From the NCBI GenBank assembly GCA_951406725.2, contig OX597819.1, positions 27,094,001 through 27,158,000 on the forward strand: a stretch of 64,000 bases of DNA, given 5' to 3'. Below, piece after piece: positions 38,336 through 55,301 of this stretch (its first letter is position 1; each line of letters begins with the position of its first letter). A program made the position numbers and the translations under genes. Source of the stretch: Octopus vulgaris. Lineage: Eukaryota. The notes beneath the pieces are model-generated. The model worked only from the letters and a program-made list of their open reading frames with translations. It had not been told where the DNA came from and ran no database searches.

Positions 38336-38392
38336 CTATTTTTAAAGAATAATCACATTCAATAATGTAGTTCTAAACACTACTTAAAACAA

Positions 38393-38564
38393 TTCTATAT
38401 TTAAGAGATGAGGAATTATGTACATTATTTACATTATTTACAATTGACGGATATTTGTCCTCATCTTGTTTATTGTTAATACAACGTTTCAGCTGATATG
38501 TCTTCCAGTCTTCATCAAGTGTCTTGGGCGAATTTCGAACCTGGTTTCTCATTCCTAAGGTATT
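38393..38564 (-). mobile_element. Inverted tail copy of the HHR-SINE (HHR 38479-38522, core TTGATGA)
   Basis: Matches 19491-19653 and is the reverse complement of 39157-39303. Confidence 0.85.
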
Positions 38565-38676
38565 AGGTTGACTCAAGATTACGGGCATATAGCGTAGTGG
38601 TTAAGAGCGCGAGCTACTAACCCCAAGATTCCGAGTTTGATTCCAGGCAGTGACCTGAACTATTATTATTATTATT

Positions 38677-39079
38677 GAGTGAGAGAGCAGTGCATGCCAT
38701 CAAAGTGACACTAGGGTAAAATATACGAAGCCCAGTATACCCATCATGACTACCCGTCTGATAAGGGTACACTAGGCACATGCATCACAACCATATGTGC
38801 GCGACATGGTGATCTCATATCAAAATAAACAGCACATGACTTTGCAGGTGGGGCCCAGTTAGAATTTTCTTTAGGTCGAGTAACCCATCCCACTCCAAAG
38901 GTCCCTGAATAAGGGTTGTTTAAGGGTGTTGAGGCACATATCGTTAGCCACTAAGGGACATGCTCAACTGGTTAAGGTCAAACAACTGACAAGCAAATCT
39001 GTGGTATTGAGCAGAATATTTGCTGTAGCCCATCTTTTATACCAAGACAAAACAATGTACATGATAACACTTCCAATCA

Positions 39080-39080
<1 letters not shown>
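38677..39080 (-). mobile_element. (AAT)n-associated element, second copy
   Basis: Reverse complement of ~13836-14315 with internal indels. Confidence 0.85.
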
Positions 39081-39148
<68 letters not shown>

Positions 39149-39200
39149 ACATCCCAAAATACCTTAGGAATGAGAACCCAGGTTCGAAATTTCCCCCAAG

Positions 39201-39244
39201 ACACCTGATGAAGGCTGGAGGTTATATCAGCCGAAACGTTGTGT
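39201..39244 (+). ncRNA. Minimal type I hammerhead ribozyme, all core nucleotides intact
   Basis: ACAC-CTGATGA-A-GGCTG-gaggttatat-CAGCC-GAAAC-GTT-GTGT. Confidence 0.85.
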
Positions 39245-39994
39245 TAACAACAAACATGATGAGGACAAATACCCGTCAAATGTAAAGAATGTAAATAATG
39301 TACCACTTAAAACGACTGAATGATCATAACTGGAACACTTCTGATAATAATTCTGCTCGATCAGGATCAGCCTGTCTGAAATAGCAGAAAGGGATAAGTA
39401 CTGTGCCATTTCACTTCCCTTTTATTTTTTAAGGAAGAAAACAGCGCTCTTGACCCTTTTCCTTCATCCATGACTGGTGGGTGAAAGCCAAAACTTATCT
39501 TGAAACAGAAGACCTAACTCGAATGCTTCCAACAGTACAGATTGTACTAAAATCATCAAAGGATTGGGTGGTGTTTTTAAACCGGGCAATGGAGAGAAAA
39601 AAAAAAGGTCCTTCCGATGGGCTTCCATAAAGTTTCCGACAACTAAATTTAACTCTGTAGTCGATCCGAGGCTACTTTAAAGGATGCTCAAAATGCTCTG
39701 CGCAATGGAGTCAAACCTGAAACCATGGAGTTTCGAAGTGAACTTTTAACTTACACTTCACATGCCTCTTGAAGAAAGAAGGAAAACAGAAAAAGGCAGT
39801 CAGTCACTCAGACTGACAGTCAAAGATAATGTTCACAGGTTTTACATATGTAAATCAACACCGGAACAGCTTGCACAGAGAGAGTCATGTTTATCTATAT
39901 GTAGTACATATGTATGTATTTGTCTATACTTGTGGGATTGCACACTGTTAGCAGCTGATTAAGCGTATATTGACAGATGTATTCACACACACTT

Positions 39995-42847: not shown

Positions 42848-43605
42848 GACGGCGAGCTGGCAGAAACGTTAGCACGCCGGACGAAATGCTTAGCCGTATT
42901 TCGTCTGCCGTTACGTTCTGAGTTCAAATTCCGTCGAGGTCGACTTTGCCTTTCATCCTTTCGGGGTCGATAAATTAAGTACCAGTTACGCACTGGGGTC
43001 GATATAATCGACTTAATACCTATTTCTGCCCTTGTTTGTCCCCTCTATGTTTAGCCCCTTGTGGGTAATAAAGAAATAGGTATTTCGTTTGCCGCTACGC
43101 TCTGAGTTCAAATTCCGCCGAGTTCGGCTTTGCCTATCGTCCTTTCGGGGTCGATTAAATAAGTACCAGTTACGCACTGGGATCGATGTAATCGACTTAA
43201 TCCGTTTGCCTGCCCTTGTTCATCCTCTCTGTGTTTAGCCCCTTGTTGGTAGTAAAGAAATAGGTATTTCGTCTTCCGTTACATTCTGATTTCAAATTCC
43301 GCTGAGGTCGACTTTGCCTTTCATCCTTTTGGGATCGATAAATTAAGTACCAGTTACGCACTGTAGTTGATGTAATCGACTTAATCCCTTTGTCTGTCCT
43401 TGTTTGTCCCCTCTATGTTTAGCCCCTTTTGGGCAATAAAGAAATAAGGAAACGTTAGCACGTCGAGCGAAATTCATAGTGGTCGACTTTGCCTTTCATC
43501 CTTTCCGGGCCGATAAATTAAGAACCAGTTGCGTCCTGAAGTCGATCAAATCCAGTGGCCTCCTTCCTCTAAAATTTTGGGCCACGTGCCTTGAGTAGAA
43601 AATAA
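42848..43605 (+). mobile_element. SINE family A concatemer: three 184-bp units plus a partial unit and tail
   Basis: gtatttcgt at 42896, 43080, 43264. Confidence 0.92.
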
Positions 43606-48879: not shown

Positions 48880-49720
48880 AGTAACAGAGAGTAGGAATTT
48901 CGATTATCCCCACGTCATGAGTTGTAATATATATAAGAAATTAAAAAAAGAAAATATACACACTTTATATAGTTTTACTATGATTTTTAATATATCGACC
49001 GGTTTCGCTTTTGCTAGTCATAATATTACGGTTTACTTATTTGAATATGTATTTTCGTAAGAAGAAATTTTGTCCATGCGTGTGACGATATTTACTAGTG
49101 AATGACTTCGCAAGTAGAAAAATAAGGGGAGGTAATTGGTTATCGTTATTACTGTTGTGAGTAAGGGAGATAACTGTTCAGCTTTCGGTAAGGGGAGGGG
49201 AATATATATGTACAGACAAAAAATGTTTCGAAAAACGTGTTTAGTACGGAGATTTATGTACAGTGATGTAATCGTGAATTGAAATATTAAAAAAGATAAA
49301 AGTTGGTTATGTGTGCATATTAGGATATCTTCTGTATTTTTCAAAGAAAAAAGTTTCTTTATTTAAACGTTCTTGTGAAGAGATTGTGTCTTTGCACTGG
49401 TAGAAGGGGAAGACTGTGAAATTTGGTTTGATGTTATCTGCACGTTTTTCTATATGTTCACTGAGAGGGATTTGTCTCTCTTGCGGGAAACGGATTTGCT
49501 CTTTATTAGAGTGGTTTTCTTTCTCAAAGTCATACTCGTCTGTCCAATATAGTTGTGTCCGCAACCCGAGTGGGTTATTACATAAATTAGGTTCTCAGGG
49601 GCACAAGTGAAACTAGTTTTTATTGTGAACCTCTGTTCTTGTTTGAAAAGTAAGTTGGGGCAGGTTCCACAGTTTGGGCGTCCCAACCTACTTCAAGGCT
49701 CGGATTTCCTTTTAAAACAT
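48880..49720 (-). mobile_element. 5'-truncated Penelope-like retroelement: GIY-YIG endonuclease pseudogene plus 3' region
   Basis: GRPNCGTCP...[26 protein letters not shown], frameshift, LSEHIEK...ERLNKETFFFEKY; GAAACCGGTC HHR-like remnant near 48993-49025. Confidence 0.88.
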
Positions 49721-50239
49721 TTACATATATATACATGTGTATATATATGTAAATGTTTTAAAAGGAAATCCGAGCCTTTTAAATCCGTGTATATACATAT
49801 ATATACACACATGTACATATATATATATATACACAAATATATATACATATATACATTTACATATATATACACGCATATATACATACATTTATATATATAT
49901 ATATATACACAAATATATATACATATACACATTTACATATATATACACGCATATATACATACATTTACATGTATATATACACATATATATACATATATAC
50001 ATTTACATATATATATATATATTTACATATATATACACACATATATATACATAAATACACATACCTATATAAATACATATATACATTTACATATATATAC
50101 ACACATATATATATATACATAGGCTAAAATATATGCGTCACTAACGTGAACAAGAGCACTAATCAGCACCAGTATTTCTAGAAATAAGGGTCAAGACATC
50201 TCAGCGACCATAAGGAGATTGTCTAAGTTATTAAGATAA

Positions 50240-53770: not shown

Positions 53771-54352
53771 GTAGCGAGCTGGCAGAAACGTTAGCACGCC
53801 GGGCGAAATGCGTAGCAGTATTTCGTCTGCAGTTACGTTCTGAGTTCAAATTCCGCCGAGGTCAACTTTGCCTTTCATCCTTTCGGGGTCGATTAAATAA
53901 GTACCAGCTACGCACTGGGGTCGATATAATCCATTTATTCCGTTTGTCTGTCCTTGTTTGTCCCCTCTGTGTGTAACCCCTTGTGAGTAGTAAAGAAATA
54001 GGTATTTCGTCTGCCGTTACGTTCTGAGTTCAAATTCCGCCGAGGTCGACTTTGCCTTTCATCCTTTCGGGGTCGATAAATATAGTACCAGTTACGCACT
54101 GGAGTCGATATAATCGACTTAATCCATCTGTCTGTCGTAGTTTGTCTCCTCTGTGTTTAACCCCTTGTGGGTAGTAATGAAATAGGTATTTCGCCCGTTG
54201 CTACATTGTGAGTTCAAATTCCGCCGTGGTCGACTTTACCTTTCATCCTTTCGGGGTTGATAAATTAAGTACCAGTGAAATGCTGGGGTTGATGTAATTG
54301 ACTTGTCCTCTCCCCGAAAATCCAGGCCTTGTGCTTTTAGCAGAAAGGATTA
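53771..54352 (+). mobile_element. SINE family A concatemer, three 184-bp units
   Basis: gtatttcg at 53818, 54002, 54186. Confidence 0.92.
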
Positions 54353-55182: not shown

Positions 55183-55301
55183 ATGCTTACAGCACTAGAT
55201 TTCCCAAGTGGTCACTCATCAAAGTACTCACTAGCCTCGACGTTGCTTAACTTCGGTGACAGGACGAGAACCGGTGCATTCAACATGATATGGCCGTAAG
55301 C
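55183..55301 (-). rRNA. Dispersed full-length 5S rRNA copy (variant or pseudogene)
   Basis: Minus: gcttacggccatatcatgttgaatgcaccggttctcgtc...ccgaagttaagcaac...agtact..gatgagtgaccacttgggaa...gtgctgtaagcat; 119 nt; terminal stem gcttac/gtaagc; TTTT at 55172-55175. Confidence 0.9.

What the first reader, a model, noticed from the sequence alone, without database searches (positions are those of the whole stretch)
38393..39303. Second HHR-SINE copy with inverted upstream tail and a nested microsatellite-associated insert
Seen: an inverted tail (38393-38564, minus) lies ~18 bp before the tRNA head, so two hammerheads face outward on opposite strands. The plus-strand HHR (39201-39244) has an intact core. 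The linker reads (TAT)n here but (AAT/AAC)n in copy 1, and is split by a ~400-bp element. Established: inverted partial terminal repeats at the 5' end are a Penelope hallmark. Inference: the layout supports Penelope-type mobilisation, and a read-through transcript could form ~150 bp of dsRNA, a potential ADAR substrate.
Basis: partly seen in the sequence, partly recalled or inferred. Interest (0 to 1): 0.75.

Follow-up and report, generated by a model that had tools for sequence, protein, structure and literature searches.

The report
Back-to-back Penelope ends, tRNA promoter
This is one old insertion of two back-to-back end pieces of a common protein-coding jumping gene (a Penelope element) rather than a separate SINE; that layout is well known, but the end piece starts with a tRNA-derived sequence that likely lets RNA polymerase III read the whole element.

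Summary
The layout is real and is one insertion: a 12-bp target-site duplication flanks 38389-39303. The "SINE" is the pseudo-LTR of an autonomous Penelope/Poseidon-type element. Its tRNA-derived head follows the GIY-YIG gene end in 28 of 30 loci, and the hammerhead "tail" is the first ~55 codons of the reverse-transcriptase ORF. Outward pairs are common (44 outward, 5 inward in other loci); 38 of 45 have one arm ~30 bp longer, and 26 of 39 have duplications (control 30 of 1482). Inverted pLTRs, the 30-40 bp tail and opposite-strand hammerheads are published Penelope features. The left hammerhead is decayed. The (TAT)n linker is rare (8 places against thousands) and likely microsatellite turnover; a ~555-bp (AAT)n-seeking repeat likely inserted later. 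ADAR editing was not shown. What is unusual is the promoter: A/B boxes, 5' ends piled at the head, and T4+ runs depleted along the ORF suggest Pol III transcription; not found in my paper searches, not shown by RNA. The scan found this before on other DNA of this genome (e1-8669850).

The parts
38379..38390 (+). left copy of the 12-bp target-site duplication (last 1-2 bases shared with the element end)
38389..38564 (-). left arm: pLTR 'tail' positions 9-185 = start of the Penelope ORF, with the ~30-bp 3' extension; 9.4% from the column majority
38478..38523 (-). decayed minimal type I hammerhead (U3 with G8, stem mismatches)
38565..38580 (.). 16-bp filler at the junction of the two arms; origin not found
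38581..38660 (+). tRNA-derived head (38583-38660) with the element's two upstream bases; A box 38590-38600, B box 38635-38644 (one C>T change)
38661..38676 (+). (TAT)5, 3' flank of the insert; part of the strand-switched linker
38677..39079 (-). copy of a ~555-bp (AAT)n-associated repeat, lacking the first 47 nt and ~100 internal nt of copy L026
39080..39147 (+). (ATT)23, rest of the linker
39150..39303 (+). right arm: tail positions 1-154, without the 3' extension; ORF start codon at 39170, frame broken in this copy; 3.7% from the column majority
39200..39245 (+). minimal type I hammerhead with intact core; predicted cut after 39240
   Evidence: architecture as in PMC4209133
39302..39313 (+). 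right copy of the target-site duplication
19487..19762 (-). copy 1: single-arm pLTR (head, short AAC/AAT linker, tail to 185)

Best explanation
The stretch 38389-39303 is a single insertion of two head-to-head pieces of the terminal repeat of a Penelope/Poseidon-type retrotransposon, likely made when the element's enzyme cut both target strands about 12 bp apart and likely primed reverse transcription from both ends, on an RNA that likely starts at the tRNA-derived head. Shown: the repeat is the pLTR of an RT + GIY-YIG element; the duplication; one long and one short arm; the tRNA origin of the head. Inferred: one target end starts copying at ORF +165 (left arm, stopped after ~175 nt), the other at about ORF +134 (right arm, ran to the RNA 5' end two bases before the head), and the two cDNA ends were joined with a short filler. 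Inferred: the many solo 'SINE-like' copies arise when copying starts at the sites in the 5' pLTR of the element's own Pol III transcript. Inferred: later the AAT linker turned over to ATT and a separate (AAT)n-seeking repeat inserted on the strand that then read AAT. The locus is most likely inert.
For: pLTR identity: head within ~30 bp of the end of the GIY-YIG match in 28 of 30 loci fetched with the ORF end (one is the query, two are duplicates), tail in the other 2; RT upstream; L247 translates without a stop from the tail ATG into the RT N-terminus; frame open in 15 of 31 full tails. One event: duplications in 26 of 39 long/short or long/long pairs, mode 12 bp, vs 30 of 1482 mismatched flanks. 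Two ends: 38 of 45 outward pairs are long+short; 3' ends peak at 140-159 (51) and 180-185 (60) of 137. Either arm can reach further 5': short in 20, long in 16, equal in 8 of 44 (a few rows are mis-scored by the script), including short arms with >1.6 kb of ORF (L228, L231), so neither arm is simply a copy of the other. Biochemistry of the anole relative: cuts and extends both strands, predicted dimer, two internal RT starts bounding the tail (PMC11167929). Pol III: head aligns to the genome's own tRNA-Arg gene, 49 of 70 columns, 0 of 1000 shuffles; 60 of 62 complete heads stop within ~10 nt upstream (the test missed L067, so 3 extend); sense-strand T4+ runs 12 vs 30.1 expected and T5+ 0 vs 5.4 in 12 copies, while T3 is not depleted (161 vs 134) and 11 pieces of other Penelope families show 58 vs 55.7 and 16 vs 14.7. 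Linker: head followed by TAT at 8 places vs 5301 pattern matches (about 3900 places) for AAT; L252 has a pure TAT linker and no insert; the two inserts in the arms of L007 are no closer to each other (92.9%) than to other copies.
Against: RNA reads of a related species (about 6% of two runs) show equal depth on both strands, no pile-up of starts at the head or at the hammerhead cut, and 83-85% of reads running on into unlike sequence, i.e. mostly read-through copies. The 12 copies in the T-run test descend from one family, so it is in effect one ~2.6-kb sequence with about 4 runs expected. A natural 10-bp palindrome straddles the head's 5' edge and could itself stop or fold back cDNA. Arms of one insertion share minor variants only slightly more than unrelated arms (21 of 318 vs 2802 of 96323; 0 of 14 at this locus), which says little on one or two templates. 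13 of 39 pairs lack a clear duplication. The junction head/(TAT)n was not seen in a listed contig. Only tRNA-Arg was compared; ARAGORN and Rfam do not call the head a tRNA.
Confidence: 0.72

Rival explanations
1. Same element, one event, but the inversion comes from fold-back self-priming (for instance on an antisense RNA) that makes a hairpin intermediate, which the endonuclease cuts at staggered sites so that the tail ends up on either arm.
For: Proposed in PMC3846280 and, for the tail, PMC8557442. Many junctions are palindromes around the head's 5' edge (L040, L041, L058). Slight excess of shared minor variants within pairs.
Against: This locus has a filler, no palindrome, at the junction; single-arm copies also end at the head's edge; the two 3' ends match two RT start sites measured in vitro for a relative.
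Confidence: 0.17
2. Solo copies form a true SINE lineage: truncated pLTRs are transcribed by Pol III on their own and moved in trans by the Penelope enzyme, and this locus came from such a solo master.
For: Intact A box in 51 and B box in 50 of 92 full heads; solo copies far outnumber ORF-bearing ones (1 of 15 random sites has ORF); pLTRs can act in trans in rotifers.
Against: No column separates solo from ORF-linked arms (4 variable columns, lowest p 0.028 uncorrected); inserts in linkers are not inherited as a subfamily (L007).
Confidence: 0.08
3. Two independent neighbouring insertions, or a mis-assembly, put the inverted tail next to the head.
For: The family is dense (about one site per 53 kb); no listed contig spans the whole stretch.
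Against: One duplication flanks both arms; 44 outward vs 5 inward pairs elsewhere; the left flank/arm junction stands in contigs of three DNA runs.
Confidence: 0.02
4. The antisense linker-plus-insert block is an in-place inversion (or assembly flip) of an ordinary AAT-insert-AAT block, not microsatellite turnover followed by insertion. This concerns only the middle block.
For: The block ends exactly at the linker's edges and its reverse complement would give the usual layout of L005 and L026; it is the only antisense linker of 91.
Against: TAT-type linkers occur without insert, pure (L252) or mixed (L251, L253, L254, L259); no inverted repeats mark the breakpoints.
Confidence: 0.25

Closest known systems
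Penelope/Poseidon PLEs, e.g. Poseidon_Ac of the green anole (PMC11167929; parts 1-2 of 4 read)
   Same: RT + C-terminal GIY-YIG; ORF begins inside the pLTR beside the hammerhead, whose cut site lies within the ORF; two 3' ends 30-40 nt apart a little over 100 nt into the ORF
   Different: Here the pLTR opens with a tRNA-derived head and an (AAT)n run; the start codon lies 35 nt before the hammerhead core; ends at about +120-138 and +165
Pen2a/Pen2 of Adineta vaga (PMC3846280; passages read)
   Same: Adjacent inverted pLTR, 9-10 bp duplication around the whole insert, 31-bp tail on one of the inverted pLTRs, pLTR holding the first codons of the ORF, solo pLTRs
   Different: Their pLTR has TATA/Inr-like (Pol II) motifs; duplication here is mostly 11-13 bp; tens of thousands of copies here
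Minimal type I hammerheads of animal PLEs (PMC4209133; parts 1-2 of 4 read)
   Same: Extra base between 9 and 10.1, G10.1-C11.1, palindromic 15.2-16.2, short stem I; dual motifs 100-700 bp apart on opposite strands already noted in Schistosoma
   Different: No tRNA head mentioned in the parts read
Animal non-LTR retrozymes (bioRxiv 10.64898/2026.07.22.740005; part 1 of 5 read)
   Same: Short hammerhead repeats related to pLTRs
   Different: Those are head-to-tail tandem arrays; these are dispersed single or head-to-head copies
Octopus tRNA-derived SINEs OR1/OR2 (passages in PMC4824008, PMC4758252; Ohshima and Okada 1994 not read)
   Same: tRNA-derived heads in a cephalopod-like genome (tRNA-Arg origin recalled, not from a call)
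   Different: Described as CORE-SINEs; this unit has only a microsatellite between head and ORF start. Sequences were not compared

Membership tests
EN+ Penelope-like elements | single ORF with RT and GIY-YIG endonuclease | tested here: met
   RT piece hits PF00078, E 1.6e-9; GIY-YIG-type end read from translations (motif recognised from recall, not scored by Pfam for this family); RT-EN-head-tail collinear in long copies. No intact ORF seen in the loci fetched
EN+ Penelope-like elements | pLTR at both sides of the ORF, holding the first codons | tested here: met
   3' side 28 of 30; 5' side L247, L248
EN+ Penelope-like elements | inverted 5'-truncated copy and 30-40 bp tail at one end | tested here: met
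   38 of 45 pairs long+short
EN+ Penelope-like elements | short target-site duplication around the whole insert | tested here: met
   26 of 39 vs 30 of 1482
EN+ Penelope-like elements | minimal hammerhead in the pLTR | tested here: met
   (core pattern intact in 41 of 121 arms); cleavage itself not testable
Penelope/Poseidon clade | C-terminal EN with CCHH and without the CX2-5CxxC linker of Neptune/Nematis | tested here: met
   by eye on the L067 translation against the definition in PMC8557442; the other family L147 does have the linker
Penelope/Poseidon clade | RT phylogeny with reference members | not tested
   no reference set on hand
tRNA-derived SINE | tRNA-related head with A and B boxes | tested here: met
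tRNA-derived SINE | a lineage separate from its partner, amplified from non-coding masters | tested here: not met
   whole unit is part of the coding element; no diagnostic columns, 90 solo vs 31 linked arms; small sample
tRNA-derived SINE | transcription by Pol III | tested here: inconclusive
   sequence signs for, RNA reads silent
non-LTR retrozyme | head-to-tail tandem units each with a hammerhead | tested here: not met
   2 tandem vs 45 outward pairs
ADAR substrate | transcribed long duplex with A-to-G changes against the same individual's DNA | not testable with these tools
   duplex predicted; no raw RNA reads of the same species label, reads of a multi-copy family cannot be placed

The most novel reading that the evidence does not exclude
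A protein-coding Penelope retrotransposon captured a tRNA gene as its promoter, is transcribed over its whole ~2.7 kb by RNA polymerase III (hence no T4 runs), gets that uncapped RNA translated, and throws off tens of thousands of SINE-like solo ends by internal priming from both target strands: a direct route from a Penelope element to a SINE look-alike.
Probability: 0.45. Interest if true: 0.75.

Novelty: new variant of a known kind. Interest (0 to 1): 0.45.

Why it matters
The inverted layout itself is textbook Penelope. Two things go beyond it. First, about 50,000 natural insertion products let one read the still undefined Penelope integration step: one long and one short arm, either of which may be longer at the 5' side, inside a ~12-bp duplication, fits the two-strand, two-start-site biochemistry reported in vitro. 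Second, if Pol III really transcribes the coding element, it is a rare case of a translated Pol III RNA in animals and shows that tRNA-headed repeats annotated as SINEs can be ends of autonomous elements. Thousands of ~150-bp inverted pairs are also a pool of possible double-stranded RNA, but nothing marks this locus as special.

Tried and rejected
Rfam and ARAGORN on the window and on 34 loci: no tRNA or hammerhead call. PF01541 search gave other Penelope families, none with this pLTR next to it among 50 loci fetched; the partner was found from the flanks of heads instead. No ORF or known family found for the nested repeat (six-frame reading; earlier findings by sequence empty). Protein search with the ORF N-terminus gave one partial hit. 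Contigs of one probable RNA run show no cover of the unique left flank; contigs do not show absence. Family-wide changes in RNA reads: A>G 16 places vs T>C 12 and 16, G>A 21 and 19, C>T 18 and 23, no excess, but these are copy differences in another species and no test of editing. No host exon was looked for beyond an ORF list. Paper searches for a tRNA-headed or Pol III Penelope or a Penelope-dependent SINE gave nothing to the point (listings only); Repbase, Dfam, SINEBase and most subscription journals are not searched, and no supplements were opened, so the consensus may be on file under some name. Rejected: independent neighbours; retrozyme; two working hammerheads.

Full report
Observation. 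The window is G000:C6:27094001-27158000 of a 2.8-Gb animal genome. The arms pair over 146 bp at 89.7%. The plus hammerhead (39200-39245) has the minimal type I form of PMC4209133 (parts 1-2 of 4 read): intact CUGAUGA, one extra base, G10.1-C11.1, GAAAC-GUU with a palindromic centre. The minus one has U at position 3 with G8 unchanged and mismatches in stems I and II, so it is likely dead.

Not chance. With a blastn script I scored pairs of tails within 1.5 kb: 29 tail-anchored loci 15 outward / 2 inward; 29 head-anchored loci (26 with a tail) 12 / 2 and 1 tandem; 80 evenly spaced 10-kb stretches (14 with a tail) 5 / 0, one of the 5 resting on a 27-nt fragment; 57 ORF-anchored loci (44 with a tail) 12 / 1 and 1 tandem. 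The anchored sets are best hits and thus biased to well-kept copies; the spaced set is not. It gives 15 sites per 800 kb, about 50,000 in the genome, and about 1.4% chance of an outward neighbour (by hand). Contigs of public DNA runs also show other copies whose minus tail joins the head's first bases (table 5), and RNA reads of a related species hold strand-switching joints.

One insertion. Of 45 outward pairs (this one included) 38 have one arm ending at tail position 168-185 and the other at 135-165; 6 have an odd end and 1 two long ends. Dropping the 6, a direct repeat scores 7.5 or more across the outer flanks in 26 of 39, mostly 11-13 bp, against 30 of 1482 mismatched flank pairs. Here it is 12 bp with one mismatch, 38379-38390 and 39302-39313. 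The left arm is the long one. The left flank/arm junction stands in contigs of three DNA runs, one of which may be the source sample.

What the unit is. An earlier scan note (e1-8669850) said that this family is a pLTR; I tested that. Some heads share an upstream sequence that translates as the end of a Penelope-type GIY-YIG domain, the stop codon about 30 nt before the head. In 30 loci fetched with that piece, a head follows in 28 and a tail in the other 2. Further upstream lies a reverse transcriptase (PF00078). In L247 and L248 the tail stands at the 5' side and runs into the ORF; L247 translates from the tail's ATG without a stop into the RT N-terminus, and 15 of 31 full tails keep that frame open. 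So the 'SINE tail' is the first ~55 codons. The EN lacks the Neptune/Nematis linker (against PMC8557442 passages), which points to Penelope/Poseidon; no tree was built. Solo (90) and ORF-linked (31) arms show no diagnostic column. Arms are about 5.6% from the column majority and the long copies seen carry stops, so the family is old.

How it likely formed. For the anole Poseidon, PMC11167929 (parts 1-2 of 4 read) reports cutting and extension of both target strands, a predicted dimer, and internal RT starts that bound the genomic tail. The two 3' ends here, about ORF +120-138 and +165, fit that. Either arm may reach further 5' (short 20, long 16, equal 8 of 44, with a few mis-scored rows), so neither is a plain copy of the other. 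I infer two primers, one per target end, and joining of the cDNA ends in the middle, here with a 16-bp filler. A fold-back intermediate resolved by staggered cuts, as proposed in PMC3846280 and PMC8557442 (passages), is not excluded.

The promoter. The head aligns over 70 columns (49 identical) with a tRNA-Arg(ACG) gene of G000; none of 1000 shuffles scores as well (no other tRNA was compared). A and B boxes stand at tRNA spacing. Of 62 complete heads in L001-L140, 60 stop within about 10 nt upstream by script, 59 counting L067; single-arm copies end mostly 1-3 nt before the head (by eye). Along 12 copies (24 kb) the sense strand has 12 runs of four or more T against 30.1 in dinucleotide shuffles and none of five against 5.4, with T3 in excess; 11 pieces of other Penelope families are at expectation. 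These copies are not independent. All this fits Pol III transcription of the whole element, with solo pLTRs as products of priming in the 5' pLTR. RNA gave no support: in two raw-read runs of a related species (about 6% read) both strands are equal, no starts pile up, and 83-85% of reads run on into other sequence.

The middle block. The linker reads AAT/AAC in 85 of 91 head-to-tail linkers, is mixed in 3, absent in 2 and antisense only here. Genome-wide the head is followed by TAT at 8 places, by AAT in 5301 matches (about 3900 places, minus-strand hits being counted twice). L252 has a pure TAT linker without insert, four others mixed ones, so AAT can turn over to ATT. The insert belongs to a ~555-bp family (22 hits in 800 kb; another copy at 13786-14315) that mostly sits in (AAT)n with its sense on the AAT strand; in other pLTR linkers it is always in sense. 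The two copies in the arms of L007 are unrelated insertions. I infer that it entered after the Penelope insertion, on the strand that read AAT. An in-place inversion or assembly flip is the rival; the junction was not seen in listed contigs. I could not name the family.

Double-stranded RNA. A read-through would fold the arms into 135 pairs (duplex -204 kcal/mol). Whether the locus is transcribed or edited could not be tested: no raw RNA reads of the same species label were offered and family reads cannot be placed.

Against what is known. Inverted pLTR, one-sided 30-40 bp tail, short duplication and first codons inside the pLTR are described for rotifer Pen2a and PLEs in general; opposite-strand hammerhead pairs 100-700 bp apart for Schistosoma. 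A tRNA-derived, probably Pol III promoter in a pLTR did not turn up in six searches (listings only; repeat databases and supplements unseen). The scan had noted it on another piece of this genome; that note is a lead, not support.

Verdict. Real, explained, a member of the Penelope-like elements; new variant by its promoter. Interest 0.45.

Noticed in passing
window 55184-55301 (-): 5S rRNA match, 88 bits, above the gathering score; gene or pseudogene not checked
   Followed up: no
window 14389-14763 (+): 3' end of another (AAT)n-seeking retroelement whose frame looks like an R4/Dong-type endonuclease end (label recalled); 14 hits in 800 kb, and it sits in pLTR linkers of L010, L030, L037, L046
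   Followed up: partly
window 13786-14315 (+): second copy of the ~555-bp repeat between (AAT)n runs; many copies start within the same first 25 nt, which suggests a defined 5' end
   Followed up: partly
window 49310-49683 (-) and 49696-49777: GIY-YIG fragment of another Penelope family beside a near-perfect 82-bp palindrome
   Followed up: no
L147 1-2780, L152 1-2790: young Neptune-type family with many 781-aa open frames in G000 and a hammerhead with the U3-A8 core variant in its pLTR
   Followed up: partly
window 19487-19762 and L045: copy 1 shares both flanks with a copy on C10, so it was duplicated together with its surroundings
   Followed up: no
L054 346-1575: six heads in tandem at about 190-bp spacing, without hammerhead tails between them
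   Followed up: no
window 42896-43530, 53818-54276, 16416-17794, 21457-22028: tandem arrays of 184-bp, 52/47-bp and 189-bp units
   Followed up: no
P0001: an annotated 368-aa protein labelled Octopus sinensis holds a piece 81% identical to this element's ORF N-terminus over 32% of the query; likely a gene model that took in a copy
   Followed up: no
L072, L090, L102, L103, L114, L119, L138: several further, unrelated minimal hammerhead motifs in the spaced sample; L138 has an outward pair at 9826/9881
   Followed up: no
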